DNA from: a virus
Taxonomy: Duplodnaviria; Heunggongvirae; Uroviricota; Caudoviricetes
Strand: one strand, 5' to 3'
Virus record (IMG/VR): IMGVR_UViG_2687453297_000004
DNA length: 38,250 bases
A program made the translations under genes and the position numbers. The notes under the pieces were generated by a model. It had not been told where the DNA came from. It worked only from the letters and a program-made list of their open reading frames with translations, and ran no database searches. Of the stretch, positions 1,020 to 13,498 are shown in pieces; the stretch's first letter is position 1, and every line of letters starts with the position of its first letter.

Positions 1020-1239
1020 TCTGAATATCCCCCCAACTGATATGAATATTACGGGCAGCAATGACAGGGTCTTTATTCCACCATGCACCTGACATGTATT
1101 TTTCAACCTGTTCGCGTCCGGCAATAACACCAATTGTGATCCCCGGCCTGACGTTCTTAAAAAAGGCGCGGGCAAAAAGGTATCTGGCAGATATTCGGCA
1201 GGCTTTTAATTTCCGGCTGTTACCTGATAACGTAATCAT
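1009..1239 (-). CDS. Hypothetical early protein
   Basis: 76-aa ORF whose start overlaps the stop of the upstream gene (1236..1919) in a compact operon arrangement. Confidence 0.35.
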   Translation of the reverse strand: MITLSGNSRKLKACRISARYLFARAFFKNVRPGITIGVIAGREQVEKYMSGAWWNKDPVIAARNIHISWGDIQNDG

Positions 1240-1919
1240 CTGGCCTCCAGTTTCTGCTGTTCCCGCCCACTGACCGGTCGGTGCAGTCTGACGTTCTGCC
1301 CTTCTCGAAACCCCGCATAGCGCGAGGCGTCGCCATTGCGACTTCTTCCCGGTTTACGCGCCCTGGTGGTTTGCGTCTGCGGGTATTTATGTTCCAGCCA
1401 CTGCTGCATCAGTTCACGTTCGTCATCGGTCAAGGCGAAGGACTGTATTTCACTGATAACGGCCAGCACCCAGCCTTCAGCAAACTGGTCTCCACGGCTG
1501 GTGCGGGTGGCGGTTTTTATTCTTTTGTTCTGTGCACTGATATACTGCTGACGCGCCTTTTTCAGCTGACGGGCCAGCACTTCCCAGGTGTACGCGGCCA
1601 GTGCGGCCCGTTCCCGGTTGCCGTAGAACCCCACACCCGGATATGTGCCGGGGTGAATGATGGAGTTAACACCAAATGCCTCGCGGATGATGTTCATCAG
1701 GCCCAGCATGTAGCGCGGCGGACGGAGGCTGCCTGTCGGCCAGTAGTGACTGATGGTTTCATCAATATCACTCATGGCGATGTCGGAATGTGTGATGCCG
1801 TGAACATCCATCAGTTTACGGGCGCGGCGCAGTGCCAGAGCGGCCTCGTGAGGGTTGCCGGATGCGGCCAGCGCCAGCAACTTTTTCAGTTTCTCAATGT
1901 GTTTATCCTGGTCTGTCAT
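1236..1919 (-). CDS. Early protein with DUF2786-like N-terminal motif
   Basis: 227 aa; N-terminus IEKLKKLLALAASGNPHEAALALRRARKLMDVHGIT resembles the DUF2786 signature found in Mu-like early regions; start overlaps the upstream stop. Confidence 0.5.
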   Translation of the reverse strand: MTDQDKHIEKLKKLLALAASGNPHEAALALRRARKLMDVHGITHSDIAMSDIDETISHYWPTGSLRPPRYMLGLMNIIREAFGVNSIIHPGTYPGVGFYGNRERAALAAYTWEVLARQLKKARQQYISAQNKRIKTATRTSRGDQFAEGWVLAVISEIQSFALTDDERELMQQWLEHKYPQTQTTRARKPGRSRNGDASRYAGFREGQNVRLHRPVSGREQQKLEAR

Positions 1920-2221
1920 TGTTCAGTATCTCCGGTGTACATGACGCCCAGCCGTGCGGCAAGGCGTTCCAGTTTTTTCTGTTTGTGGAAGTCAATCAGC
2001 CGGTCCATCCCCTGAAGGCGCAGCTGCTCTGTCATGATTTCCACGTCTGCCAGCTCTGCCGCGAGGTCACTTTCGCTGCCCTGTCCGTTCAGGTTGCGGG
2101 CGGCACTGGCCGCCAGTTCAGCGGCCTCTTCTGTCAGTTTCAGGGCCTGTGCATCCGGACCGAAACGCTGCAGGGCCAGACGGTAGAGGGCGGTGCGGGT
2201 GAGTTCGGTGTTCCGTGTCAT
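1916..2221 (-). CDS. Hypothetical early protein
   Basis: 101-aa ORF, co-oriented and tightly packed within the early operon. Confidence 0.4.
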   Translation of the reverse strand: MTRNTELTRTALYRLALQRFGPDAQALKLTEEAAELAASAARNLNGQGSESDLAAELADVEIMTEQLRLQGMDRLIDFHKQKKLERLAARLGVMYTGDTEQ

Positions 2222-2230
2222 GCCGCGCCC

Positions 2231-2503
2231 TCAGTGTTTCCGGTCGACGGTGATGTTCAGGCCGCCTTCTGCAGTGGTTTCCACCCGGTACGGCACCTCG
2301 TGCTCTGCCGTGTGGGTGAGTGTGTTCATCAGTACCTGCAGGGCAGCCGCCTTTCCGTTGGTTGCCACAATGGCCTGAGCGGCCATGCTGATTAACGCCG
2401 TCAGGACGTGCTTCACATCGGTGAGGTCGCGGCATTCACACTCGTTGACATAGTGTTCAACAAGGGTTCGGGTGCGCTGTCGTGCTTCCTGTGGGGTAAT
2501 CAT
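2231..2503 (-). CDS. Hypothetical early protein
   Basis: 90-aa ORF; start overlaps the stop of the upstream zinc-ribbon ORF. Confidence 0.4.
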   Translation of the reverse strand: MITPQEARQRTRTLVEHYVNECECRDLTDVKHVLTALISMAAQAIVATNGKAAALQVLMNTLTHTAEHEVPYRVETTAEGGLNITVDRKH

Positions 2504-2694
2504 TGCGCGTCCTCCCTGTCAGGGCGGGAGAATTCCATGACGGGCACGTCCGCCGAAAAATGCTGGCTGCAGTACGGACAGACCAGGGTGACGCGTACCG
2601 CAGGGATGTGGTATTTACCGGACATCACGGCGATGGCGCTGTGAAAACGCAGGGCTGTTATATCCCTCTCGCACTGAATACATTTAAATATCAT
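2500..2694 (-). CDS. Small zinc-ribbon protein
   Basis: 64 aa with two CxxC pairs (CIQCERD ... CPYCSQHF); strong SD (AGAGGAGAA) upstream of the ATG on the minus strand. Confidence 0.45.
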   Translation of the reverse strand: MIFKCIQCERDITALRFHSAIAVMSGKYHIPAVRVTLVCPYCSQHFSADVPVMEFSRPDREDAQ

Positions 2695-2791
2695 AATTTA
2701 ATTCTCCTCTGTTTCCGGCGTGCAGAAGCCCACGGCGCTGACGCCGGAATAAAAAAGAAAATGTTTTTATTAAATAATTAACGTGGTGTGT

Positions 2792-3322
2792 TTACTGCAC
2801 ATCCTGCTCAAAAGGAATTATTGAAAAATCCTCAATGTCGCTTTTAATGGAAATACCGGGAATATTTTTCACGGCCTCTTTTTCATTCAGGATAGCGTCT
2901 TTATTTATTTCCTCTTTTACACGAATAAAGCGCTCAAGCCCCAGACGTCTCAGTAATTCAATAACATTATCCGCCCCACGGATACTGACTGATGGCGGAC
3001 GGTTTCGCCACTGCACCTCGCCGGTGGTGAGGTTAGCGAACTTCACCTTCCCGTTGCCGGTCAGTTCATCACGGTGCGCCTCACACCATGTCTGGATACC
3101 GGACTGCAGTTCGGCCATGCGTTTTTTCAGGCTCTCGGTGAGCGGGGCATAACGTGCAGTGATGTCGCCAATGGTGTCATTCATTTCTGTTTCAGCCCTG
3201 ACCAGTTCACGTTGCGCGTCACCAAGCAGTCTGATTCCCTCAATGACCTCTTCGCGTGTCCCCGGCACCCAGAGTGCTGCTGCGGCTTTGATACGTTTTG
3301 CCCCTTTTGTACTTTTTGCCAT
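2792..3322 (-). CDS. gam: Gam-like host-nuclease inhibitor / DNA-end binding protein
   Basis: 176 aa, similar in size and early-region position to Mu Gam; strong SD (AGGAGGAG) before the ATG. Confidence 0.65.
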   Translation of the reverse strand: MAKSTKGAKRIKAAAALWVPGTREEVIEGIRLLGDAQRELVRAETEMNDTIGDITARYAPLTESLKKRMAELQSGIQTWCEAHRDELTGNGKVKFANLTTGEVQWRNRPPSVSIRGADNVIELLRRLGLERFIRVKEEINKDAILNEKEAVKNIPGISIKSDIEDFSIIPFEQDVQ

Positions 3323-3349
3323 ATTTTATGACTCCTCCTGTTGTGCTGA

Positions 3350-3619
3350 TTACCACAAAGATTCCGGCCACACGACGCGACAGCCGTGCAGTTCGAAAAC
3401 GCCCTGACGGAAATGTCCCCTGTGGTCATGACCGGTATACAGATAACAGGCCTTTCCCTGCTCAAGCATGCGCATGCAATGCGCACTCCGGGAAACGCGG
3501 ATGACAGGTTTGTTACCCCTGATGGTGATGCTTTGTACATCCGTGTTCGTCGCCTTAAGCGCCATAATGGCTGACTGCACTTTGCTGATTTGCTGGTTGA
3601 TACCTGTGGTGGATTTCAT
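3350..3619 (-). CDS. Hypothetical early protein
   Basis: 89-aa ORF directly downstream of the MuB-like gene with a plausible SD. Confidence 0.4.
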   Translation of the reverse strand: MKSTTGINQQISKVQSAIMALKATNTDVQSITIRGNKPVIRVSRSAHCMRMLEQGKACYLYTGHDHRGHFRQGVFELHGCRVVWPESLW

Positions 3620-3621
3620 TA

Positions 3622-4827
3622 TTAAACCCCTTTGACAACGTCAGCGTTGACCTGTGGAACCCCGATTTCAGCGGCCAGATTCATGGCGGCTATTACCAGG
3701 TTACTGACGGCCAGCGGATACAGCAGGCTGACCATATTTTTACGATGACTTCCCGGATTGCTCAGGCGGGCACGTATGGCATCCACTGCGCTGGCGTCCA
3801 TAATGTCCGTCAGTTGTTTACCGGCCCGTTGCAGTTTGAACGTCAGAAACTCTTCAAGGTTATTGTCCAGAGGCAGAAGTTCGACCACCTCACAGCGCTG
3901 AACGACTTCACGGACTTCCATATTGCGTTCAGACAGTTTTGTCGCCAGTTCCGGCTGGCCAATCAGCACGATGGACAGCAGTTTTTTGAAACCGGACTCC
4001 AGCTCAAAAAAGCGTTTGAGGTGTTTCAGTGTCGGAATGGGCAGACTGTGGGCCTCCTCAATCACCAGAACGTGGCTGAACCCCGCCTGGCTGCTGTCTT
4101 TCAGGACGCGATGCAACTGGCGAAAGCGGGCGTCCTGACTGCGTCTGATGCTTTCCAGTGGTGCGATGGTACTGATAATGGCTTCGGCAATCGCTGCTGC
4201 CTTCAGGGTTTTCCCTTTCACATCGTTGTCTTCCATAGCGATGATGTATGGCTCGATAACAATTACCGGCGCATTCTCGCGGTTGATACGTTCAGTCAGG
4301 TCGCGGCGCAGCGTGGATTTACCCGCACCGGACTCACCGATGACGGCCATAAATCCACCATGACGGGCTGTCTGGTACAGCGCCTCACGCACATAGCGGA
4401 TGTCCGGGGTGGTGAACACATCATCAGAACCCTGCATGGCTTCGTCGGCGAACGGGTCACGGAAAAGACCAAACGCTTTTTTGGTTGCTGGAAATAACAC
4501 CTGTTTTTTGAGTAACATATTCTCTTCCTCACTGAGGCTCGTTTTATCTGTGGTACCCGCTGTACGGGGCGTGGCCGCGACCTGTACAGCATCAAAACTC
4601 TTCGTTGTATCAATCCCCTGACTTTCCAGCCAGGACGCAAGACGCCGGCGCACTTCTCCGGGGCGGGTGCGGGGCCACGCGTTATGATTCACAATCTGGG
4701 CCAGCGTGGCCTCAGAAACATCGACAGCTCTCGCCACCACCGCCTGTGAGATACGGGCCTCTTTCAGTTGCTGCTTCAGTACCAGCATGTTTTCCTCCTC
4801 AGTTGCCGTTAACAATGCTGATAACAC
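3622..4827 (-). CDS. MuB-like AAA+ transposition ATPase (target DNA activator)
   Basis: 401 aa; Walker A GESGAGKST; N-terminal HTH-like segment; lies immediately downstream of and overlapping the transposase gene, as B follows A in Mu. Confidence 0.75.
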   Translation of the reverse strand: MLSALLTATEEENMLVLKQQLKEARISQAVVARAVDVSEATLAQIVNHNAWPRTRPGEVRRRLASWLESQGIDTTKSFDAVQVAATPRTAGTTDKTSLSEEENMLLKKQVLFPATKKAFGLFRDPFADEAMQGSDDVFTTPDIRYVREALYQTARHGGFMAVIGESGAGKSTLRRDLTERINRENAPVIVIEPYIIAMEDNDVKGKTLKAAAIAEAIISTIAPLESIRRSQDARFRQLHRVLKDSSQAGFSHVLVIEEAHSLPIPTLKHLKRFFELESGFKKLLSIVLIGQPELATKLSERNMEVREVVQRCEVVELLPLDNNLEEFLTFKLQRAGKQLTDIMDASAVDAIRARLSNPGSHRKNMVSLLYPLAVSNLVIAAMNLAAEIGVPQVNADVVKGV

Positions 4828-6568
4828 TGCTGCGGGCCGGCGTGGTCAGCGTGGCCATGACTTCATCCAGTGCGGCTTCCGGTACGCCGTCCGGGTACTG
4901 TGCCGTTAACTGGCGGTAATGTTCCGGCGTCCAGGTAAGGCCGTCGGCGCTGAACTTATCGCGCAGGGCTTTCGCGGCCTCCACATGAGTCATGGGACGT
5001 TGTTCAGTGCGCGGCCCGCGTACGTCAGAGGCCTGACCGCGCTTCGGCATATAGGCCGGAAGTGTGGCGTCATCAATATGTTTATACGGGTCAAGCCGCC
5101 CGCCGAACGGCAGCGCCTTCGCCTTGCGTGCGGCAGCTGCATCTGTGGCGTTGTCTGTACCGGTGACCAGTGCTTCAGTTTCTTTTGCCGCCGTCTGCGC
5201 CGGTGTTTCCGGCAGGGCTTTGTAACTTTCGCCAAATACCGCCGCGCCTTCAGCAAAGCCAAACTCGTTCTTTCTGACCTCTTCGACCAGGAAGAACGTC
5301 TCGTGGCCGTCCTCACCGGTCAGAACCACCTGTGCCACATCGCTGCGCCACGGGTTACGGGTAATCATCAGTTTTTCACCGACCAGTACGCCCGGTACCG
5401 TTGATACGTCAAATTCAGTGCCCCGGAACGAGACACGAAGTTTTGGCGTGACTTTGCGGAGTTCTGGCGCCGCCACAGCCAGTTCACGACATACCTCAAC
5501 GGAAGGCGCTTTTTTCAGCTGCTCAGCAGTAATCTTCAGCCAGATATCCGTGCGGGTTTTACCGTGGCGGCTGTGAACAGCCGTGGCGTTAAAGTGGCTG
5601 CGCCATTTCGCGGCCAGCGCGTTGAGTTCTTCCAGACTGTGAACCGGCCGGAACTTCAGACCCGGCTCCAGCTTGCGTTCGATAATGTCTCGCGCCTTTT
5701 CCACCTGTCCGGTGGCGCGGGCGTTATGCGGCTTGTGCGCTATCAGGTCAATGCCCAGTGAGCGGCACATGTTTTTCGTCATACCCGCGGTGTTTGCCGA
5801 GCCGGGGTCGAGATAGAGTATTTTTGGCACGCCGTGCAGCACGTCTGCGCCGCCACGCTCCTGCATGGCGTTGATAAGCACAGAACACAGGTTCTCACCG
5901 GATTCCGCACCCGTCACATACTCAACGTAAATCCAGCCGCTGGCATGGTCGGTAATCTCATAACTCCACACGCGGTCACTGGCGATACGGGCAAGGTTAG
6001 CGGGCTTGTTCTTGTAGAATTTCGCGCTGTCCATCACCTGCAGCCCTTTGTGTCCATTGCTCAAGTAGTAAAGCGTGCAGAGCGAGGCATCAATCTGCCA
6101 GACATGATTGGGATGCAGACTGGCCACTTCGGTATGCGGCGCAGGGGCATCCAGTTGTTCCGGGTGCAGGCCATAGTTACGCAGGGCACGGCTGATGGCA
6201 TCTTCGGACAACGGGAAAAACTCACCGGTGGTTTCATCTGTTCTGCCTGCGGAGATAAAGCCGTTAGCCCGCAGGGTTTCCACTGCATCCGCGATGGAAT
6301 AGAGACGCTTACCGTTCTTGCGGGTGGCCTCACGCAGTGTGGCAGATATCAGCGCGGCTTCGTCGCGGGTCAGGGCGCTGCGCCCGGCATCGGCGCGTTT
6401 TTTGCGTTTATCAGTCACAGAGACCTCCTTCAGCCTGCGCAGCAGAGTGGCGCGGGACATGCCAAGTTCAGCACAGGCAGCGTCGTATATTGCACCGCGT
6501 TTACCATGCCCCGCGTCACGTGCCGCGCGGGCGACATAAACCAGTCGTTCAGTCAGGGCAGCATTCAT
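4799..6568 (-). CDS. DDE transposase (Mu/rve integrase-core type)
   Basis: 589 aa; N-terminal HTH region; candidate DDE residues in HVWQIDAS, LYLDPGS and GQVEKA; position between the Ner-like and MuB-like genes. Confidence 0.85.
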   Translation of the reverse strand: MNAALTERLVYVARAARDAGHGKRGAIYDAACAELGMSRATLLRRLKEVSVTDKRKKRADAGRSALTRDEAALISATLREATRKNGKRLYSIADAVETLRANGFISAGRTDETTGEFFPLSEDAISRALRNYGLHPEQLDAPAPHTEVASLHPNHVWQIDASLCTLYYLSNGHKGLQVMDSAKFYKNKPANLARIASDRVWSYEITDHASGWIYVEYVTGAESGENLCSVLINAMQERGGADVLHGVPKILYLDPGSANTAGMTKNMCRSLGIDLIAHKPHNARATGQVEKARDIIERKLEPGLKFRPVHSLEELNALAAKWRSHFNATAVHSRHGKTRTDIWLKITAEQLKKAPSVEVCRELAVAAPELRKVTPKLRVSFRGTEFDVSTVPGVLVGEKLMITRNPWRSDVAQVVLTGEDGHETFFLVEEVRKNEFGFAEGAAVFGESYKALPETPAQTAAKETEALVTGTDNATDAAAARKAKALPFGGRLDPYKHIDDATLPAYMPKRGQASDVRGPRTEQRPMTHVEAAKALRDKFSADGLTWTPEHYRQLTAQYPDGVPEAALDEVMATLTTPARSSVISIVNGN

Positions 6569-6571
6569 TGG

Positions 6572-7483
6572 TTATGCCTCCAGCCCGTTAATCTGTGGCG
6601 TCGGCTCAGTCAGCCATGAAGGCGCTGCATTGCCTGTTGGCTCGTCCGGCAGGTCAAATGTGGAGCGCAGGCTACGCGCTGTGCTTTCCAGTTGACAGAC
6701 CAGGCCTGCCATGAAGTCTCTGGGGGTATCAATCATGTTTTCAGCACAATATGCGCACAGTGTCTCAAAAGCGCTGGACAGTCGGACGGCGATAGCAGAT
6801 TCCGCCTCAACCGCTAATGCTGTCACTTCCGCCCGCAGCTTCTTAACCTCCTCATCAGGCTCAGGCGGCTGAATACGGGATTTCTTTTCCAGTCTGGTAG
6901 AGAGAGAATCAATTTTTTCATTTTTATCGGCGAGTACGCGCTGTTGTGCTGCGTTGGTTTCGCGCGCTTCGCGCAGGGCCTGGCGAAGTTCGCGTACTGA
7001 CATGCGATCAACGTCGTCAAGCGTCAGGCCGGCAACAGTGCCACCATCAGCCAGTTCGGCAAGGTTTTCATCGTCTTCCGTCATTAACTCGAATAATTTG
7101 GCTTTTCCTAAAAGCGCAAACGTCTGCGCTTTTGACTCAAGTTGTGGTGATAAATATTTTATTGATGCCTGCATCATTACCTGTGCAGTACGCTTTGACA
7201 TTGATAATTCAGACTCGACAATATTTATGAAATCACCATGTGGTTCATTTTCTTTCAGTATTATCAGTCGTTTACCTGCCTCTAGCATGGCCTCAGCACT
7301 TTGTGCCATATAAAAGCGTGCTTCGTGAACAATGCGATCTCGTTCATAAGGCAGACCATCGCCGAACTGCTGCATGATCTCCACGCGGTGTTGTGCCATG
7401 GTATTAAGACTGATGTTGAGATCATCAGACAGCGGCACCTCAGCATTCAGATCAGTGGACATTGGTGATTTGGTACGTCCCAT
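6572..7483 (-). CDS. Hypothetical early protein (acidic, coiled-coil-rich)
   Basis: 303-aa ORF directly upstream of the transposase in the same operon; no motif recognised. Confidence 0.45.
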   Translation of the reverse strand: MGRTKSPMSTDLNAEVPLSDDLNISLNTMAQHRVEIMQQFGDGLPYERDRIVHEARFYMAQSAEAMLEAGKRLIILKENEPHGDFINIVESELSMSKRTAQVMMQASIKYLSPQLESKAQTFALLGKAKLFELMTEDDENLAELADGGTVAGLTLDDVDRMSVRELRQALREARETNAAQQRVLADKNEKIDSLSTRLEKKSRIQPPEPDEEVKKLRAEVTALAVEAESAIAVRLSSAFETLCAYCAENMIDTPRDFMAGLVCQLESTARSLRSTFDLPDEPTGNAAPSWLTEPTPQINGLEA

Positions 7484-7493
7484 TGATTACTCC

Positions 7494-7802
7494 TTATAAA
7501 CGACTACCTGAAATGACACGTTGGTTGATTTCGTTAATACGATCCTGCGCTCGTGCCATCTCGTTACTGTGAGCCATGGCGATCTGCAGTAACTGGATGC
7601 CCGGTGCAAAACGTCCATTCTCCAGTTTCAGGGCCAGCCCTTCTTCAATGAGGGTGTTGAGTGCCCGATTAATGTTTGCTGGTGACTCGTGCAGTGCTGC
7701 CGCCAGTTCACCGTTGGAGATACCGTTCAGAGCGTGGCCACGTAACGCCTTAAGAACACGCAAAATACGGGTACCTGCGCTTGATGTATTTGGTTTATTC
7801 AT
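7494..7802 (-). CDS. Putative winged-helix DNA-binding protein
   Basis: 102 aa; HTH-like segment ISNGELAAALHESPANINRALNTLIEEGLA; second gene of the early operon. Confidence 0.45.
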   Translation of the reverse strand: MNKPNTSSAGTRILRVLKALRGHALNGISNGELAAALHESPANINRALNTLIEEGLALKLENGRFAPGIQLLQIAMAHSNEMARAQDRINEINQRVISGSRL

Positions 7803-8650: not shown

Positions 8651-9544
8651 ATGAGTGGTGATGTGAGAAATTATCGTATTGAGTTTCATCAGCTATCGTT
8701 TAAGGCCACAGATCAGCTGGCAAATCTCGGAGATGCTTTTCAATCTGTAATTGATAAACAGAGCCCTTCCTCTTCAAACCATGAGGGTTTTACTAGAGAA
8801 ATTTGGGGGTTGAAAAAACGCGCGGATGGTTCTTTTAGTGGAGAGTTGAGAAAATTTCGCAACTCGAACATTCCGGATAAAGGTGCACCAGGGAAACAGT
8901 CTACCCCTATTCCACTTGCCAAGGATGAAGGGATCATTGAGCGCAATTTCTTTGTATTCTATCCTCGAATCAATGTTATAGGTTGGCACTATAATCATAT
9001 GGCTTGTGGTATAAGCCGTTTTAGTGCATTTCTTTCAACTATCTTTGGTTCAAAGGTTAAGCCCGCACCTTTGCTGGAAAAAGATGCAATCGCTAGGCTT
9101 ATGAGAGGAGATGTCAAAATGAAAAAAATCCAGTTGACGATTCCTCGCCCCCGTAATCCTGAGTTTTACCCTGATACTGATTTCAGTCAAAAGACACTAC
9201 AACTGCTTGGTGATGCAGGTGCCGATACAATGCAAATTGTAATGGGGATTAATACTCGCCGTGGCGATAGTGATGGTAGGCTTAAGCAGAATATAAAATT
9301 TGCTATGCAAGAGTTAGTCGAGTTTGGGGCGAAAAAGGCTGTAATTGATGTGTTCGATGCTGATGGTGTTGTCCATCCTGTGGATTTGATTGCCGAGCGT
9401 ATTTCGTCCTATCAATCGGTAGTTACTGACGCTCGTTTCCCTCCAGCCGAAACCATGTACCGTCTAATCGATACTGCGTATGCTGAAAACCGGGAGAGTA
9501 TCAATGCATATATTGGAGAAGATGAACTCGGCCCTATTGCTTAG
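8651..9544 (+). CDS. Hypothetical 297-aa soluble protein; candidate RexA-like exclusion component
   Basis: SD AAGGA 9 nt upstream of the ATG; AT-rich composition compared with flanking prophage DNA; directly downstream of and co-oriented with the repressor; followed by an overlapping 4-TM protein gene. No motif recognised. Confidence 0.6.
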   Translation: MSGDVRNYRIEFHQLSFKATDQLANLGDAFQSVIDKQSPSSSNHEGFTREIWGLKKRADGSFSGELRKFRNSNIPDKGAPGKQSTPIPLAKDEGIIERNFFVFYPRINVIGWHYNHMACGISRFSAFLSTIFGSKVKPAPLLEKDAIARLMRGDVKMKKIQLTIPRPRNPEFYPDTDFSQKTLQLLGDAGADTMQIVMGINTRRGDSDGRLKQNIKFAMQELVEFGAKKAVIDVFDADGVVHPVDLIAERISSYQSVVTDARFPPAETMYRLIDTAYAENRESINAYIGEDELGPIA

Positions 9545-9941
9545 TTTATTGATTGGATGTGGGATTGGTTTTCTCTACTGGTTCAAGTTGCCCCATATGC
9601 CAGTAGCCGCAATCCCAAACTTCATGACTACATTGTCCAGTGTCTTTGCAACGTTGTTAGGTTTTATTATTACAGCAATTGCACTACTTGCATCATTGCT
9701 TGATAAACCGTTACTTAAAAACATGCAAAAAACCGGACATTACAAGCGTCTGATGACCGATGCATTCTACACTTGCTTAGTTTTGCTAGTGTTGGTGTTG
9801 ACATGTTTGATTGGGTTGATGCTGCAAAGTAAGCATCAAGAGATTGTAGCCGCTATCCTCATTGGGCTTGTTGTTATGTCTATGTTGTGTTTATTACAAA
9901 CAGGTAGGCGATTATTCAATATAATCAAAGTGATATCATAA
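9522..9941 (+). CDS. 139-aa four-TM membrane protein; candidate RexB-like partner
   Basis: Internal ATG at 9522 with GGAG upstream, overlapping the end of the preceding gene; four hydrophobic helices (SALLLSLLIGCGIGFLYWF, LSSVFATLLGFIITAIALLASLL, FYTCLVLLVLVLTCLIGLML, IVAAILIGLVVMSMLCLL). Confidence 0.55.
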   Translation: MNSALLLSLLIGCGIGFLYWFKLPHMPVAAIPNFMTTLSSVFATLLGFIITAIALLASLLDKPLLKNMQKTGHYKRLMTDAFYTCLVLLVLVLTCLIGLMLQSKHQEIVAAILIGLVVMSMLCLLQTGRRLFNIIKVIS

Positions 9942-9965
9942 CAATGCACCATCAGGTGCATTGTT
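9940..9965. terminator. Candidate bidirectional terminator hairpin between convergent genes
   Basis: Perfect 11-bp inverted repeat AACAATGCACC-ATCA-GGTGCATTGTT between the 4-TM gene (+) and the Dam gene (-); no clean U-tract, so it may be a processing or stability hairpin instead. Confidence 0.35.
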
Positions 9966-9993
9966 ATGCAAGACTACTTACCTCCTTCTGAGC

Positions 9994-10761
9994 CTACTCT
10001 AAATTACTTACAATAAGTTCGCGCCGTAGTGTTCCCTTTCCTGCAAGACTGTAGTTGACCTTCACACAGTGAATGTTCAGACCGTTAAAAACCTGCCGCA
10101 TTTCCGGGATATCGTTGACCGATATAATCATCTTTCCTCTGATGCAACGGGCCAGCTCTGCCAACCGCGAGTAGTTCCCTTCAGGAAAATCCACACCATA
10201 GCCTTCCGTACCCAGGTACGGTGGGTCGCAGTAGAACAGCGTGTGCGGACGGTCATAACGCTCAATGCACTGTTGCCAGTCCATGTGTTCTATCACCGTT
10301 CTGGAAAGTCGCAGGTGTGCCGCTGAGAGCTCTTCCTCAATACGCAGCAGGTTGAAGCGTGGCGGGGATGTGGTGGAGGTGCCGAAACTATGCTCTGCCA
10401 CCTTGCCACCAAACGCCTGCTTCTGGAGGTAGTAGAACCGTGCCGCACGCTGGATATCCGTCAGTGTTTCTTCCGGGGTGATCTGCAGCCATTTGTAGAT
10501 CTGACGGCTGACCAGCGCCCATTTGAACTGGCGGACAAATTCTTCCAGGTGATGCTTTACCACCCGGTACAGATTCACCAGTTCACCGTTGATATCATTG
10601 ATGACTTCGATCTTGCCGGGTGTCTTAAGAAAATAGAGCGCTGCTGCCCCACAAAACGGCTCCACATAACATTCATGCGCCGGAAACAGCGGCAGAATGT
10701 GTTTTGCAAGGCGGCGTTTGCCACCAATCCACGGCACGATGGGTAATGTCTGCATTTTCAT
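9994..10761 (-). CDS. Orphan DNA N6-adenine methyltransferase (Dam-like)
   Basis: Motif I-like PWIGGKRR and motif IV DPPY (FYCDPPYLGTEGYG); start taken at the internal ATG 10761 (MKMQTLPIVPWIGGK), although the ORF is open to 10851; no adjacent restriction endonuclease gene seen. Confidence 0.8.
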   Translation of the reverse strand: MKMQTLPIVPWIGGKRRLAKHILPLFPAHECYVEPFCGAAALYFLKTPGKIEVINDINGELVNLYRVVKHHLEEFVRQFKWALVSRQIYKWLQITPEETLTDIQRAARFYYLQKQAFGGKVAEHSFGTSTTSPPRFNLLRIEEELSAAHLRLSRTVIEHMDWQQCIERYDRPHTLFYCDPPYLGTEGYGVDFPEGNYSRLAELARCIRGKMIISVNDIPEMRQVFNGLNIHCVKVNYSLAGKGTLRRELIVSNLE

Positions 10762-10865
10762 AATCTGTAAGCCTTTTACAATTATTAAAAAATATGGCAG
10801 TCTGGTCAGGTCTCGCGAGACTGACTGAACCTTGGTCGGCTCACAGCGCATTCCTGTGGGGCGAT

Positions 10866-10897
10866 GACCAGCCCGGCTTTCGGGTGCCGGGCTGGTC
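10866..10897. repeat. 11-bp perfect inverted repeat (GACCAGCCCGG / CCGGGCTGGTC) forming a GC-rich hairpin
   Basis: Read directly from the sequence in the intergenic region between the 71-aa ORF and Dam; a 12-bp perfect palindrome GTCTCGCGAGAC lies nearby at about 10809..10820. Confidence 0.6.
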
Positions 10898-10951
10898 GTT
10901 CTTTCATGATGCGGCAGGGATGGCGGGATTTCTGTTAATGTGGTTTAGGGA

Positions 10952-11167
10952 TTATCCGGGGCGATTTTCTGACCTTATCCGGTCCAGGGCATAAGTAATA
11001 CCTTCTGCAAAAACAGAAGTATCAAACTGCTTTTGTATTCCCTGAAAATGAAAAGCGGCACGACAGACACTCAGTTCTCCGCGGTATAACCGGATAATAT
11101 CTTCCAGAACATTGTTCACTGCTTCAGCACGGCGCTGATGTTCTGTTAACGTTAATCGGGGATTCAT
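10952..11167 (-). CDS. Hypothetical small protein (71 aa)
   Basis: Strong SD AAGGAG 7 nt upstream of the ATG on the minus strand; co-oriented with the Dam and NTPase genes. Confidence 0.45.
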   Translation of the reverse strand: MNPRLTLTEHQRRAEAVNNVLEDIIRLYRGELSVCRAAFHFQGIQKQFDTSVFAEGITYALDRIRSENRPG

Positions 11168-11570
11168 GATGCACTCCTTAAATGATGATTTTTATGTACT
11201 CACCGGCAAAATATTCTGCCGATTACTGAACACGCATCCGGCACCTCAGGTTTTGATTTATTCTGGTTTTTTCGATATCCCGGACCAGGTTGATCACGAC
11301 CAGAAAAAGTGCCGGTGTTTTATTGATACGCTGATATGGCTTCGGGATAACAGCTATATTCGTTACTCTCAGTTGCTGGCTGTGGGAGCGGCTGATGTCG
11401 TCCTCACGGAAAAAACGCTCTGTCTGCTCAATGCCATGCCGACCTTTCTGCAGCCCCGGCCCGTACCATTTAAAGAGTCACTTCTGGATGCAGTAAAAAC
11501 CGGTGAAAATGCAGTCATCGCTGAATGCGTATCCCGGATTATGCGTTACGTGTTTAATGAACGTAAGTGA
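11166..11570 (+). CDS. Hypothetical protein (134 aa), uncertain
   Basis: Long open frame exactly filling the gap between two minus-strand genes; weak SD; its start codon overlaps the divergent start of the 71-aa ORF, so only one of the two may be real. Confidence 0.3.
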   Translation: MMHSLNDDFYVLTGKIFCRLLNTHPAPQVLIYSGFFDIPDQVDHDQKKCRCFIDTLIWLRDNSYIRYSQLLAVGAADVVLTEKTLCLLNAMPTFLQPRPVPFKESLLDAVKTGENAVIAECVSRIMRYVFNERK

Positions 11571-12274
11571 GGTTTATCCGCTGTCTGCATAATCCCGATA
11601 GCCAGTGCGAGGGGAAGTAATTCCGGGGAAACTCTTTCAAACAGCGATGCCCATTCTCCTCTCGCCATCACTCTGTCCAGCCCGCCCCCCAACTGCATTT
11701 CAGCAATCTTCCTGATTTCCCGGAACAACGCCGCTTTGATCTCTTCATGCTCAGCTTTATTTTCCGGTGTCAGAAGGTATTCGTCGAAGAACCGGGGAGG
11801 CTGGTTAATCGGGATGTGTTCCTGTTTGCCGTACTTCGGAGACGAACAACATTCTGTTGGCTGACCGGTGAGTTTACGTAACTCCTTCATGAGCAGCTCC
11901 TGATCGTAAACTGTCATCAGTGCCGCAATGGTGGCATGCAGTGCATCGGGCAGTATCCAGGGTTGCCGGCCCGTGGGGCATATAACATCCAGCAGCTCAT
12001 TCGTCCGACAGATACGCTCCTCGCCGTATGACAACAGGCCCTGTCCCGTGTATTCCTCCAGCCTGATCACTGTGCCACCCCGTGGCTTCTGCCAGGTCGT
12101 CAGATCTTCGCCATTCATACGGCGCTCATTCTCCACGTCAGCAGCATCGACAATGACGCTGTTTCCGAGTTCCTGTTTCACCATCTCTTCTATCCGCGCC
12201 AGTACGTAACTTTTACCGCTGCCCACAGGACCGGACACAGTGACAGTGATGACCGGATTCAGTGTGTGCGTCAT
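11546..12274 (-). CDS. P-loop NTPase of unknown function
   Basis: 242 aa; Walker A GPVGSGKSY near the N-terminus and Walker B-like VIVDAADVE; strong SD GAGGAG upstream; divergent from the late operon. Confidence 0.6.
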   Translation of the reverse strand: MTHTLNPVITVTVSGPVGSGKSYVLARIEEMVKQELGNSVIVDAADVENERRMNGEDLTTWQKPRGGTVIRLEEYTGQGLLSYGEERICRTNELLDVICPTGRQPWILPDALHATIAALMTVYDQELLMKELRKLTGQPTECCSSPKYGKQEHIPINQPPRFFDEYLLTPENKAEHEEIKAALFREIRKIAEMQLGGGLDRVMARGEWASLFERVSPELLPLALAIGIMQTADKPHLRSLNT

Positions 12275-12404
12275 ATCGTATTCTCCTCTGTGAATAATTC
12301 ATCGTTTATCCTGCACATCCCGTATCCCCGGCTCTCTTAACGCGCTTTAAAATCCTTTGCGCCCTGTATTTGTGATGCTGTCTCCACCAAACGAGGAGAC
12401 ACAC

Positions 12405-12755
12405 ATGAAAAACCTGAAAAAATTCATTCCCCCTGTTAAAAAACCTCGCCTCAGCGGCTGGCTGCTGACCTCAGTGCTGTTGCTGGGCACCATCGCTCTG
12501 GTCTCACCACAGCAGCTGCCTGTTGTGATCTACAAGCTGGCACTCATCACGCTGGCAGCAGTGCTGGGTTACTGGCTTGACCGTTCGCTCTTCCCCAAAG
12601 CCCGTCCCGGTCAGTACCTGAAACATGACGACAGGCTGATGGCTGAAGGGCGTTTCCCGGTACAGACCGGCCTTCACCTGGTGTTTTCTGCTGCGTTAAT
12701 CCGCCGTGCACTGATTGTTGCAGCGGTCTGCCTGGCTGTTGCGATGGGGCTTTAA
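12405..12755 (+). CDS. Putative holin / small membrane protein at the head of the late operon
   Basis: 116 aa from ATG 12405 (SD AGGAGA); two to three TM helices; immediately precedes the endolysin gene. The ORF track's longer start at 12357 lacks an SD. Confidence 0.5.
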   Translation: MKNLKKFIPPVKKPRLSGWLLTSVLLLGTIALVSPQQLPVVIYKLALITLAAVLGYWLDRSLFPKARPGQYLKHDDRLMAEGRFPVQTGLHLVFSAALIRRALIVAAVCLAVAMGL

Positions 12756-12757
12756 TC

Positions 12758-13498
12758 ATGAACTGGCCGCAGATCACCTGGATTGTATGCATGTCCCTGA
12801 AACTGGCTTTCGAAGCCTTTCGGGTCTTCATCAGAACCGAACGCCTGTCAGTCCGCGCCGGGACCTTTCTGGTTCATATGGCATGGGTATTCTTTGTCGC
12901 AATGTTGCTCTGGTGTGGCGGCTTTTTCAGCCAGGCATGCGCAGCACAACCTCCGCAGGCTGCGCTGCAGTATCGCGATGATGTGATCCGTAATGCCCGG
13001 CTTGAATGGGGACTGTCTGCGCCGGTGGCCGATTTCGCCGCGCAACTGCATCAGGAAAGCGGCTGGCGACCTGATGCGATCTCGCCGGCTGGCGCTCAGG
13101 GACTGGCGCAGTTCATGCCTGCCACTGCCGACTGGATAAGCCAGTTGATACCGATGCTGAGCAGTCGTGAGCCGTTTAATCCGGCATGGGCTATCCGGGC
13201 GCTGGTCAGCTATGACCGCTGGCTGTGGCAGCGTGTCAGCGCCGCCAGTGACTGCGAGCGTATGGCCATGACACTGTCGGGCTATAACGGTGGTCTGGGC
13301 TGGGTACAACGGGACAGGCGGCTTGCATCACAGAAAGGTCTGGACAGCACCCGCTGGTTCGGACATGTCGCCACGGTGAATGCCGGACGCAATGCGGCCA
13401 GCTGGCGGGAGAACCGCCATTATCCGCAGCGCATCCTGCGCGAACTGGCACCGCGATATCTCACATGGGGAGGCAGCAGTTGTGTGGCATCTGGTTAA
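12758..13498 (+). CDS. Endolysin, SLT-type lytic transglycosylase with N-terminal SAR-like hydrophobic segment
   Basis: Catalytic-domain motif LHQESGWRPDAISPAGAQGLAQFMP; N-terminal Gly/Ala/Cys-rich hydrophobic stretch MAWVFFVAMLLWCGGFFSQACAA; exact start uncertain (12758 or 12878). Confidence 0.75.
   Translation: MNWPQITWIVCMSLKLAFEAFRVFIRTERLSVRAGTFLVHMAWVFFVAMLLWCGGFFSQACAAQPPQAALQYRDDVIRNARLEWGLSAPVADFAAQLHQESGWRPDAISPAGAQGLAQFMPATADWISQLIPMLSSREPFNPAWAIRALVSYDRWLWQRVSAASDCERMAMTLSGYNGGLGWVQRDRRLASQKGLDSTRWFGHVATVNAGRNAASWRENRHYPQRILRELAPRYLTWGGSSCVASG

What the first reader, a model, noticed from the sequence alone, without database searches (positions are those of the whole stretch)
9994..12274. 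Leftward accessory operon: P-loop NTPase, small ORF and orphan Dam methyltransferase wedged between the immunity region and the lysis genes
These genes are on the strand opposite to the late operon and separate from the early operon, which is typical of accessory or moron cargo. The Dam-like methyltransferase has no cognate endonuclease here, consistent with an anti-restriction or epigenetic role. The 242-aa Walker A/B protein has no obvious family and could be a kinase-like toxin, defence or anti-defence factor.
Basis: partly seen in the sequence, partly recalled or inferred. Interest (0 to 1): 0.45.

Follow-up and report, generated by a model that had tools for sequence, protein, structure and literature searches.

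The report
Phage methylase module with hidden antisense RNA
The interval is the accessory segment of a Mu-like (BcepMu-type) E. coli prophage: an ordinary orphan DNA adenine methylase, a chimeric mini-P-loop protein and a small gene.

Summary
The three leftward ORFs exist at the stated coordinates, in a BcepMu-like transposable prophage. It is 100% identical to E. coli AR_0067 and lies between a CI-type repressor and the holin/SLT lysis genes.

1. A real 134-aa gene (11166-11570). Its ATG overlaps the ATG of the 71-aa gene in a CATG palindrome, an arrangement kept in 58/58 loci, including P2-like phages.

2. A ~116-nt structured RNA ending in a terminator (10793-10908, + strand), just upstream of Dam and opposite to it.
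   - It shows strong covariation and a clear strand asymmetry.
   - A model built from enteric copies finds it next to Dam homologs in B3, VP882, phi1026b and a Shewanella Mu-like phage.
   - In IMG/VR it sits next to a Dam homolog in 68/70 contigs.
   - The phi1026b copy scores 44.4 against the Rfam ctRNA_pGA1 threshold of 45. The window copy is not detected by Rfam.

Dam is an intact D12 orphan methylase of a widespread phage clade; its target site is unproven.

The "NTPase" is a chimera. A 158-aa protein carrying a 75-aa mini-P-loop domain is fused to a homolog of an 89-aa Serratia phage protein. It matches no known fold or family.

Best model: a leftward unit ending in Dam, with Dam held down by a countertranscript RNA. 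Functions of the protein genes remain inferred.

The parts
9994..10761 (-). Orphan D12-class (Dam-family) N6-adenine DNA methyltransferase, 255 aa. The ORF extends to 10851, but the upstream 30 codons are probably not translated.
   Evidence: PF02086 E=1.2e-29. PADLOC MTase_II E=1.4e-112. TIGR00571 116.5 bits against cutoff 114.85. DPPY and EPFCGAA motifs present. 60-67% identical to the methylases of phi1026b, VP882 and B3. Closest solved structures are DpnM and E. coli Dam.
10793..10908 (+). Conserved structured RNA: a 5' hairpin, a closing helix, hairpin 2, then hairpin 3, which is an intrinsic terminator with a U-run. It is encoded opposite to Dam, about 31 nt from the Dam start codon. It is probably a countertranscript (cis-antisense) regulator of Dam.
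   Evidence: RNAalifold and covariation: 95.8% of cells paired, 10 pairs with double changes, 0/500 shuffles reach the observed value. Strand test: 95.8% paired on the plus strand against 81.7% on the minus strand, and the plus strand folds 5-19 kcal/mol better in all 10 sequences. Model R1 scores 121 bits here and 43-67 bits in unrelated phages. 68/70 IMG/VR copies have an adjacent divergent Dam. The phi1026b copy scores 44.4 against 45 for RF00236.
10866..10900 (+). Terminator stem-loop of the RNA (GACCAGCCCGGC...GCCGGGCUGGUC) followed by GUUCUUUC.
   Evidence: -34.2 kcal/mol on the plus strand, z=-4.4. The stem covaries across phages. G-U pairs occur only in the plus orientation.
10952..11167 (-). 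71-aa protein gene (phrog_4490) with a strong AAGGAG Shine-Dalgarno that lies inside codons 2-5 of the 134-aa gene.
   Evidence: phrog_4490 E=7e-53. A 73-aa Serratia homolog sits in the same position. Intact in all E. coli-type loci examined.
11166..11570 (+). A winged-helix-like sequence pattern is inferred. Its ATG shares the CATG at 11165-11168 with the 71-aa gene.
   Evidence: phrog_2266 E=2.6e-44. PGAP annotates it as WP_000972294.1. Homologs and full-length alignment. CATG overlap with a small minus-strand ORF in 58/58 loci. No Pfam, PADLOC or PDB match.
11546..12274 (-). 242-aa chimeric protein (phrog_3787). Residues 1-75 are a mini-P-loop domain (12050-12274). Residues 76-152 are a middle module. 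Residues 153-242 (11546-11818) are homologous to a stand-alone 89-aa Serratia phage protein.
   Evidence: AF3's 158-aa protein is identical over residues 1-152. The C-terminal part is 45% identical to the Serratia 89-aa protein. The N domain recurs with many different C-termini and as stand-alone proteins of about 72-90 aa. AF2 model of the N domain has pLDDT 88 but no fold match.
12275..12404 (.). Divergent control region between the 242-aa gene and the holin. It holds a conserved block, TTTAAAGCGCGTTAAGAG read on the minus strand (its complement on the plus strand carries a possible TAAAAT -10 hexamer for the late operon), and a stem-loop over the holin Shine-Dalgarno.
   Evidence: Sequence. 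My own by-eye comparison with Serratia L013. The same block is retained in AHB24. No consensus sigma-70 promoter was found. The stem folds at -13.3 kcal/mol.

Best explanation
The interval is the variable accessory segment of a BcepMu-like transposable prophage.

Its backbone is a leftward transcription unit. It starts in the control region shared, divergently, with the holin/late promoter. It runs through the mini-P-loop gene and ends in an orphan Dam-family methyltransferase.

Dam belongs to a widespread phage clade whose gene is almost always preceded by a ~116-nt structured, terminator-ended RNA on the opposite strand. I infer that this RNA is a countertranscript. Dam-sense transcripts coming from upstream must carry its exact complement just before the Dam ribosome-binding site. 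Pairing would then block translation or trigger cleavage. Methylase would be made only when strong upstream (lytic) transcription outruns the RNA. In purpose this parallels Com control of mom in Mu and of Dam in phage B3.

Between the P-loop gene and Dam, the E. coli and Serratia lineages carry an inserted cassette:
- a 71/73-aa gene (leftward);
- a 134/139-aa winged-helix-like gene (rightward);
- an 89-aa gene (leftward).

The start codons of the first two overlap in a CATG, so their 5' mRNA regions or promoters necessarily overlap. That forces mutually exclusive or mutually antisense expression. In E. coli the 89-aa gene has fused in frame to the resident 158-aa P-loop gene, giving the 242-aa protein.

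Shown: the gene and RNA anatomy, conservation, covariation, RNA strand, linkage to Dam, and the chimeric origin.

Inferred: transcription start sites, the antisense mechanism, the timing of expression, the methylase target site, and all biochemical functions of the 71-, 134- and 242-aa proteins.
For: Identity and context:
- 100% match to the AR_0067 chromosome and 97% to phage PhiKM (Bcepmuvirus).

RNA:
- The predicted structure is well supported. 95.8% of cells are paired, 10 pairs show double changes and 0/500 shuffles reach the observed values; slid controls pair at 32-54%.
- G-U pairs and folding energies favour the strand opposite Dam in all 10 sequences.
- Model R1 finds full-length copies on the strand opposite Dam in B3, VP882, phi1026b and Shewanella MuM16-1 (43-61 bits).
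- With those phages included, 25 of 34 pairs show compensatory changes.
- In IMG/VR, 71/80 seeded loci match. 68/70 have a divergent Dam homolog 10-43 nt (median 31) from the RNA's 5' end.
- Across 58 distinct sequences, 94% of cells are paired.
- In phi1026b, VP882, B3 and the Shewanella phage, Dam is co-oriented with the late genes just upstream and the element fills the gap. Read-through mRNA must therefore contain its complement.
- The phi1026b copy matches the antisense family RF00236 end to end, at 44.4 bits against a threshold of 45.
- B3 has a Com-like translational regulator before Dam, showing that this clade is post-transcriptionally controlled.

Leftward unit:
- The P-loop gene is always divergent from and adjacent to the holin.
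- In L079 the P-loop gene is followed directly by Dam.
- L072/L073 lack the 134-aa gene, leaving the 242-aa and 71-aa genes about 57 bp apart.

Cassette:
- The Serratia trio has the same overlaps.
- The CATG overlap is present in 58/58 loci.

Chimera.
Against: - No transcription start site is mapped. The consensus scans give only weak promoters (9/12 matches), no more than expected by chance.
- If Dam uses only the weak promoter next to its start (about 10781-10809), the two RNAs would not overlap. Control would then be by promoter competition, not pairing.
- A conserved RNA structure could also serve a trans-acting or protein-binding role.
- The phi1026b Dam homolog is moderately expressed in a lysogen (RPKM 21,563; PMC2920897), so repression in lysogeny is not absolute.
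- Two IMG/VR copies and L077 keep the RNA without Dam.
- The IMG/VR set was seeded with a hairpin-2 pattern, so the invariance of that stem is an ascertainment effect.
- Alignments made by the model lean towards its structure.
- For the protein genes there is no functional evidence at all.
Confidence: 0.55

Rival explanations
1. One reading: a single leftward moron operon of three cargo genes. The P-loop protein would be a kinase-like toxin or a defence/anti-defence factor. Dam would be an anti-restriction or epigenetic methylase expressed from the prophage.
For: The segment is mosaic cargo. Dam is an orphan. The mini-P-loop domain is joined to many different C-terminal modules and occurs as a small early-region phage protein, a pattern typical of conflict proteins. 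The phi1026b Dam homolog is expressed in a lysogen (PMC2920897).
Against: The picture ignores the embedded rightward gene and the RNA. No PADLOC defence model, toxin, kinase or nuclease domain is hit. The P-loop module is only about 75 aa, and some family members replace the Walker Ser/Thr by Asn. The P-loop gene is a fixed-position gene next to the holin, not swapped cargo.
Confidence: 0.2
2. The 71-aa and 134-aa pair, with the 89-aa/C-terminal module, is a self-contained conflict cassette: toxin-antitoxin-like, abortive infection or superinfection exclusion. It would move between phage accessory hotspots and be regulated by mutual antisense.
For: The same pair architecture occurs in the region of P2-like phages between replication gene A and cos. 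From my own knowledge, that region is the old/tin defence hotspot. The pair also occurs in the BcepMu-like cargo slot. The large protein is conserved while the small partner is non-homologous between lineages, as with swapped cognate partners. Rare natural variants lose the 134-aa gene but keep the 71-aa gene: two deletions and one nonsense mutation.
Against: No PADLOC, Pfam or PDB match. The head-to-head layout is unlike known toxin-antitoxin operons. The 134-aa gene is retained in about 98% of E. coli copies, 519 against 528 places, so there is no sign of strong counter-selection. A stand-alone homolog in phage NrS-1 has no partner.
Confidence: 0.2
3. The structured element is not a regulator of Dam. 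It would be a rightward leader plus terminator, like lambda 6S RNA and tR', that insulates or attenuates transcription into the lysis/late operon.
For: In the window and in AHB24 it points the same way as the holin. In AHB24 it lies directly between Dam and the holin control region.
Against: In phi1026b, VP882, B3 and Shewanella MuM16-1 the element is antisense to the surrounding late genes and points away from any gene it could lead into. It travels with Dam, not with the holin.
Confidence: 0.07
4. The conserved inverted repeats act at the DNA level, as a protein-binding operator or recombination site upstream of Dam, not as RNA.
For: The region overlaps the presumed Dam promoter. Hairpin 1 is a near-perfect palindrome (GTCTCGCGAGAC) of the kind bound by dimeric regulators.
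Against: 55 G-U pairs on one strand become 66 mismatches on the other. Stems covary while loops drift. A U-run follows the last stem on that strand only.
Confidence: 0.05

Closest known systems
Rfam RF00236 ctRNA_pGA1 (plasmid countertranscript antisense RNA)
   Same: Two consecutive hairpins followed by a U-rich tail, typed by Rfam as an antisense gene. The phi1026b member of the family found here aligns end to end with the model at 44.4 bits, E=5e-8.
   Different: The score is just under the gathering threshold of 45. The window copy gives no RF00236 hit even at E<=10. The phage RNA has an extra 5' hairpin and a closing helix. It is linked to a methyltransferase gene, not a plasmid rep gene.
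Mu com-mom, and the com-like gene before Dam in Pseudomonas phage B3
   Same: A DNA-modification gene of a transposable phage, placed in or after late genes, with a dedicated post-transcriptional control element just upstream. B3's Dam is 64% identical to this one and carries both Com and the RNA element.
   Different: Here no Com-like zinc-finger gene is present. The 71-aa protein has a single Cys, and the control element is an RNA on the opposite strand. Mom is not a methyltransferase (Mu biology is from my own knowledge).
E. coli Dam, DpnM and T4 Dam (D12 class, GATC)
   Same: The same Pfam and TIGR family, DPPY catalytic motif, orphan status. These are the best solved-structure matches, E=1e-17 to 1e-16.
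   Different: The match is weak (63-67 bits over about 245 aligned residues). In the HMMER alignment the positions of the GATC-contacting hairpin residues of E. coli Dam (L122, R124, N126, from my own knowledge of the 2G1P structure) read K, A and H. GATC specificity is therefore unproven.
Face-to-face promoter switches of P2 and 186 (C/Cox, CI/Apl)
   Same: Divergent small regulator-type genes whose transcripts or promoters overlap, so that expression of one interferes with the other (my own knowledge). The 134-aa protein has a winged-helix-like sequence pattern.
   Different: Here there is no intergenic region at all: the two start codons share a CATG. There is no sequence similarity to C, Cox, CI or Apl. 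DNA binding is untested.
ABC-type and other P-loop NTPases
   Same: A canonical GxxGxGKS Walker A. The following helix and strand resemble ABC nucleotide-binding domains (best PDB sequence hits E about 2e-5 over about 35 residues).

Membership tests
D12-class (Dam family) N6-adenine DNA methyltransferase | Match to PF02086 / TIGR00571 above the curated cutoffs | tested here: met
   PF02086 104.3 bits (cutoff 22). TIGR00571 116.5 bits (cutoff 114.85, only just)..
D12-class (Dam family) N6-adenine DNA methyltransferase | Catalytic DPPY motif and AdoMet-binding motif I | tested here: met
   FYCDPPYLG and EPFCGAAALYF are read directly from the translation. They align with the motifs of DpnM and E. 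coli Dam.
D12-class (Dam family) N6-adenine DNA methyltransferase | GATC target specificity | tested here: inconclusive
   The positions aligned with the E. coli Dam residues L122, R124 and N126 differ, but the alignment in that hairpin is uncertain. GATC is depleted in the prophage, 96 observed against 182 expected, which does not settle the matter. Methylome data are needed.
Orphan (solitary) methyltransferase | No cognate restriction endonuclease adjacent | tested here: met
   Neighbours hit no nuclease or restriction-enzyme model in Pfam, PADLOC or NCBIfam. The same Dam sits beside unrelated genes in relatives.
P-loop NTPase (any established family: kinase, AAA+, ABC, KAP, packaging or replication ATPase) | Walker A motif | tested here: met
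   GPVGSGKS at residues 15-22. G15, G20 and K21 are invariant; G18 and S22 are nearly invariant across the family.
P-loop NTPase (any established family: kinase, AAA+, ABC, KAP, packaging or replication ATPase) | Conserved Walker B and a complete alpha/beta core, with a family-model match | tested here: not met
Rfam RF00236 ctRNA_pGA1 | Score at or above the gathering threshold (45 bits) | tested here: not met
   Window copy: no hit at E<=10. The related phi1026b copy scores 44.4 bits. The link between the two copies rests on my own model R1.
Cis-antisense (countertranscript) RNA regulators | A transcript made from the strand opposite an mRNA leader and overlapping it | not testable with these tools
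   Strand, structure and terminator are shown. The start sites of the RNA and of the Dam mRNA are not known. Overlap follows only if Dam is read from upstream, which the gene order in phi1026b, VP882, B3 and the Shewanella phage implies.
Known anti-phage defence systems (PADLOC-DB 2.0) | Any component model hit for the 71-, 134- or 242-aa proteins or their P2-like homologs | tested here: not met
   Only the generic MTase_II model hits, on Dam. The others give nothing, or P-loop noise at E>0.009.
Type II toxin-antitoxin modules | Co-directional two-gene operon with a recognisable toxin or antitoxin domain | tested here: not met
   The genes are head-to-head with overlapping start codons. No toxin or antitoxin Pfam domain is found.
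DUF2513 (a UniRef name for the Serratia homolog of the 134-aa protein) | Pfam PF10711 match | tested here: not met
   No DUF2513 hit for the window protein, P0080, the P2-like homologs, the L025 paralog or the NrS-1 homolog, even at E<=1.

The most novel reading that the evidence does not exclude
Two readings remain open.

1. The Dam-linked RNA is a previously unrecognised, widespread phage riboregulator family, at most a remote cousin of the plasmid ctRNAs. It would time or limit orphan-methylase expression in Mu-like, lambdoid, telomere-type and other phages.

2. Separately, the CATG-overlapping 71/134 gene pair is a new kind of mutually antisense two-gene switch or conflict module shared by P2-like and BcepMu-like phages.
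Probability: 0.35. Interest if true: 0.65.

Novelty: new variant of a known kind. Interest (0 to 1): 0.5.

Why it matters
Orphan Dam-type methylases are among the commonest accessory genes of temperate phages. How their expression is restrained is known only for a few cases, such as Mu mom and Com.

A conserved, strand-specific structured RNA sits beside this methylase clade in at least 57 distinct IMG/VR sequence variants and in the model phages B3, VP882 and phi1026b. That gives a concrete, easily tested regulatory hypothesis. It also gives a candidate RNA family that Rfam 15 detects only marginally, if at all.

The element occurs in about 9% of complete E. coli genomes, many of them ST131. 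This bears on why a prophage methylase in ST131 (M.EcoMIV in EC958) was found transcriptionally low with no assignable motif (PMC4659465). Identity of that enzyme with this one was not verified.

The start-codon-overlapping gene pair and the modular mini-P-loop proteins are additional uncharacterised phage building blocks worth a bench test.

Tried and rejected
- Full-length AF2 model of the 242-aa protein: pLDDT 42, unusable.
- T7 gp5.5/5.7 similarity, claimed in the phage Midge annotation for the 143-aa homolog: hhalign probability below 2%. Rejected.
- DUF2513 membership: no Pfam hit.
- Homology between the 71/73-aa and 63/64-aa partner families: none by BLASTP or hhalign.
- PDB sequence searches for the 71-, 63- and 134-aa families: nothing.
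- Tum antirepressor idea for the P2-like 143-aa protein: no match in phage 186 or P2 records.
- Lambda-6S-like leader model for the RNA: contradicted by its orientation in phi1026b, VP882, B3 and the Shewanella phage.
- Attempt to locate EC958 M.EcoMIV/Phi2 to tie the published RT-PCR data to this Dam: two 50-kb windows held no prophage. The link is left unverified.
- The phiE125 methylase paper could not be retrieved.
- Literature searches for the protein accessions, DUF2513 and ctRNA_pGA1 biology gave nothing relevant.
- By-eye and consensus promoter searches for the 71-, 134- and 242-aa genes gave no convincing sigma-70 sites.
- The idea that the 134-aa gene is often inactivated, as for a toxic effector: only about 2% of E. 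coli copies lack it.
Full report
**What the window is.** The region 9500-12800 is 100% identical to the chromosome of E. coli AR_0067. It is 97% identical to Escherichia phage PhiKM, classified as Bcepmuvirus. The flanking genes fit a BcepMu-like transposable prophage:
- a transposase, a DUF3102 protein and an IclR-like HTH protein on the left;
- holin (Holin_2-3), SLT endolysin, spanin, a Mu gp27-like protein, terminase, Mu portal and Mu F on the right.

About 9% of complete E. coli genomes (491-498 of 5426) carry the central cassette, and many of the strains listed among the matches are ST131.

**Check of the observation.** The three minus-strand ORFs are at the coordinates given. The finding needs five corrections.
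1. Dam almost certainly starts at 10761 (255 aa), not 10851.
2. A plus-strand gene of 134 aa (11166-11570) lies between the 71-aa and 242-aa genes and overlaps both. It is real. It matches phrog_2266 at E=2.6e-44, PGAP annotates it, and homologs at 82%, 53% and about 31% identity align over the full length.
3. A structured RNA lies between Dam and the 71-aa gene (described below).
4. Walker A is real, but a conserved Walker B is not.
5. Two more plus-strand genes of low GC follow the repressor.

**The segment is a cargo hotspot.** The gene content between the repressor and the holin differs between relatives.

| Relative | Content between repressor and holin |
|---|---|
| PhiKM | Same set as the window |
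| KP12 | Dam plus an unrelated 188-aa gene |
| AF3 | Only a 158-aa 'ABC transporter ATPase' and other cargo; no Dam |
| AHB24 | Dam only, plus an NA37 nucleoid protein and a 401-aa protein |
| Serratia prophages | Dam, 73-aa, 139-aa and 89-aa genes |
| L078, L079 (unnamed IMG/VR contigs) | A P-loop gene with a different C-terminus, then Dam |

Two positions are fixed. A mini-P-loop gene sits divergent from and adjacent to the holin. Dam sits at the far end, co-oriented with it.

**Dam.**
- It is a D12-class enzyme with intact DPPY and motif I.
- It is 60-67% identical to the methylases of Burkholderia phi1026b and KS9, Vibrio VP882, Halomonas phiHAP-1, Pseudomonas B3 and a Shewanella Mu-like phage.
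- Its nearest solved relatives are DpnM and E. coli Dam, at low similarity. The residues aligned with the GATC-reading hairpin of E. coli Dam differ, so the target site is open.
- No endonuclease is adjacent.
- GATC is depleted about two-fold in the prophage, with a 5.9-kb GATC-free stretch over the early operon.
- Published data: a D12 prophage methylase of ST131 strain EC958 (M.EcoMIV) is weakly transcribed and has no assignable motif (PMC4659465). I could not verify that it is this enzyme.
- The phi1026b homolog is moderately expressed in a lysogen (PMC2920897).

**The RNA.** About 150 bp upstream of Dam is conserved in every Dam-carrying relative, whatever lies beyond it.
- *Structure.* RNAalifold on ten sequences predicts a 5' hairpin, then a four-pair closing helix around a second hairpin, then a third hairpin followed by a U-run.
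- *Pair counts.* 95.8% of cells are paired, ten pairs carry changes on both sides, and none of 500 shuffles reaches the observed values. Slid controls pair at 32-54%.
- *Strand.* The structure belongs to the plus strand, opposite to Dam. The 55 G-U pairs there would be mismatches on the other strand (81.7% paired). Every sequence folds 5-19 kcal/mol better on that strand.
- *Reach of the model.* A covariance model built only from enteric copies (R1) scores 121 bits in the window (10793-10908). It finds full-length copies, again opposite to Dam and 21-33 nt from its start codon, in B3 (there upstream of com-Dam), VP882, phi1026b and Shewanella MuM16-1.
- *Covariation with distant members.* With these included, 25 of 34 pairs show compensatory changes.
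- *IMG/VR survey.* A pattern scan seeded on hairpin 2 gave 80 loci, of which 71 match the model. 68 of 70 have a divergent Dam homolog (55-95% identity) 10-43 nt away. Across 58 distinct sequences, 94% of cells pair and 19 pairs change on both sides.
- *Rfam.* Rfam 15 finds nothing in the window at the gathering threshold or at E<=1. RF00236 does not appear even at E<=10. The phi1026b copy aligns end to end with RF00236 ctRNA_pGA1 at 44.4 bits, against a threshold of 45.
- *Extra repeat.* A further A/U-rich inverted repeat abuts the Dam Shine-Dalgarno.

**How the RNA most likely works.** In phi1026b, VP882, B3 and the Shewanella phage, Dam follows late genes on the same strand, and the element fills the gap between them. 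Any read-through Dam mRNA therefore carries the exact complement of the RNA just before the Dam ribosome-binding site.
- That is the geometry of a countertranscript regulator, and it agrees with the near-match to an antisense RNA family.
- It also agrees with B3 having a Com-like translational regulator at the same place.
- In the window, the same logic makes Dam the last gene of a leftward unit that starts next to the holin promoter. The stem-loop at 10866-10900 has no U-run on the minus strand, so it should not stop leftward transcription.
- The start sites are not mapped. Promoter competition with a Dam-proximal promoter, or a trans-acting role, cannot be excluded.
- A lambda-6S-like leader for the late operon is contradicted by the orientation in the four distant phages.

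**The 71/134 pair.** The two start codons share the palindrome CATG at 11165-11168. Each Shine-Dalgarno lies within the first codons of the partner.
- The same arrangement holds in 58 of 58 loci. These are E. coli and Serratia BcepMu-like prophages, and P2-like prophages of Escherichia, Klebsiella, Salmonella, Citrobacter and others. In the P2-like phages the pair lies between replication gene A (or DinI-like genes) and cos.
- Both partners evolve as proteins, with 37 and 40 distinct sequences.
- The small partners of the two lineages (71/73 aa against 63/64 aa) show no detectable homology.
- With overlapping starts, the 5' regions of the two mRNAs, or their promoters, must overlap. Simultaneous expression is therefore constrained. 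This follows directly from the sequence.
- The 134-aa protein has a winged-helix-like sequence pattern (my inference). It has no Pfam, PADLOC or PDB match.
- Rare natural variants delete the 134-aa gene (L072, L073) or truncate it (L028) while keeping the 71-aa gene. About 98% of E. coli copies retain it.

**The 242-aa protein.** It is a chimera.
- Residues 1-152 are identical to the complete 158-aa protein of strain AF3.
- The C-terminal part is homologous to the stand-alone 89-aa Serratia protein, which occupies the same place and also overlaps the 139-aa gene tail to tail.
- The first 75 residues form a mini-P-loop domain. This domain recurs with many unrelated, shuffled C-terminal modules. 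It also occurs as stand-alone proteins of about 72-90 aa in the early regions of unrelated phages.
- Some family members have Asn in place of the Walker Ser/Thr.
- The domain models confidently (pLDDT 88). It has no fold match and no family match above a cutoff.
- Sequence similarity to ABC nucleotide-binding domains covers only Walker A and the next strand.
- Its function is unknown. A nucleotide- or phosphate-binding adaptor is the most that can be inferred.

**Verdict.**
- The finding is real but was mis-drawn.
- The methylase is an ordinary member of a known phage clade.
- The 'NTPase' is not a routine ATPase, nor demonstrably an enzyme.
- I rate the whole as a new variant of a known kind: a phage accessory module with an antisense-controlled orphan methylase. 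Interest is about 0.5.

Noticed in passing
window 8651-9941 (+): Two overlapping plus-strand genes directly downstream of the CI-type repressor. One is 297 aa (phrog_7651, function unknown). The other is a multi-pass membrane protein of 114-153 aa. GC is about 0.41 against 0.55-0.59 for the phage. They are absent from most relatives. They are a candidate cargo pair expressed in lysogeny (exclusion or defence?), with no Pfam, PADLOC or NCBIfam hit.
   Followed up: partly
window 1138-7006 and 7336-7581: GATC is depleted about two-fold in the prophage (96 observed, 182 expected). There is a 5.9-kb GATC-free stretch over the early/transposase operon. Six GATC sites then cluster within about 250 bp, in the 5' end of the DUF3102 gene and the adjacent IclR-like gene.
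   Followed up: no
window 9942-9967: A perfect 14-bp stem-loop (-21 to -23 kcal/mol on either strand) lies between the convergent 153-aa gene and Dam. It has no U-run on either side.
   Followed up: partly
window 12370-12405: A stem-loop (GUCUCC...GGAGAC, -13.3 kcal/mol) covers the holin Shine-Dalgarno. The same sequence is kept in AHB24.
   Followed up: no
L025:2993-3560 (IMG/VR UViG_2737471845_000031): This variant has a second copy of the Dam-upstream RNA and a stand-alone paralog (about 126 aa, 27% identity) of the 134-aa protein inserted next to Dam. Both elements therefore appear to be mobile units.
   Followed up: partly
L077:4390-4503 (-); L171; L131: These are copies of the structured RNA with no Dam homolog beside them. 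In L077 a 225-aa lipoprotein-like ORF follows instead. The RNA can therefore persist without the methylase.
   Followed up: no
NZ_CP032261.1 about 2,904,447-2,905,042: Strain AR_0067 carries a second copy of the 71/134 cassette. It therefore probably has two BcepMu-like prophages.
   Followed up: no
L005:1717-3932 (E. coli AHB24): In this relative the cargo slot after the repressor holds an NA37 nucleoid-associated protein and a 401-aa protein. The latter has a weak KwaA (Kiwa) match, E=8e-5.
   Followed up: no
L008:503-2108 (Salmonella phage FSL SP-004): In this P2-like phage the 143-aa homolog is followed, on the same strand, by a Fic-family gene. In Klebsiella phage ST147-VIM1phi7.1 a gene annotated 'polymerase' and an HTH gene lie next to it on the opposite strand, convergent with it.
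   Followed up: no
L002 (OM835952.1): The GenBank record 'Klebsiella phage KP12 clone KP12_2' is filed under Vequintavirinae. Its 35-kb sequence is a BcepMu-like transposable phage with transposase, Dam, holin, SLT and a Mu-type terminase.
   Followed up: no
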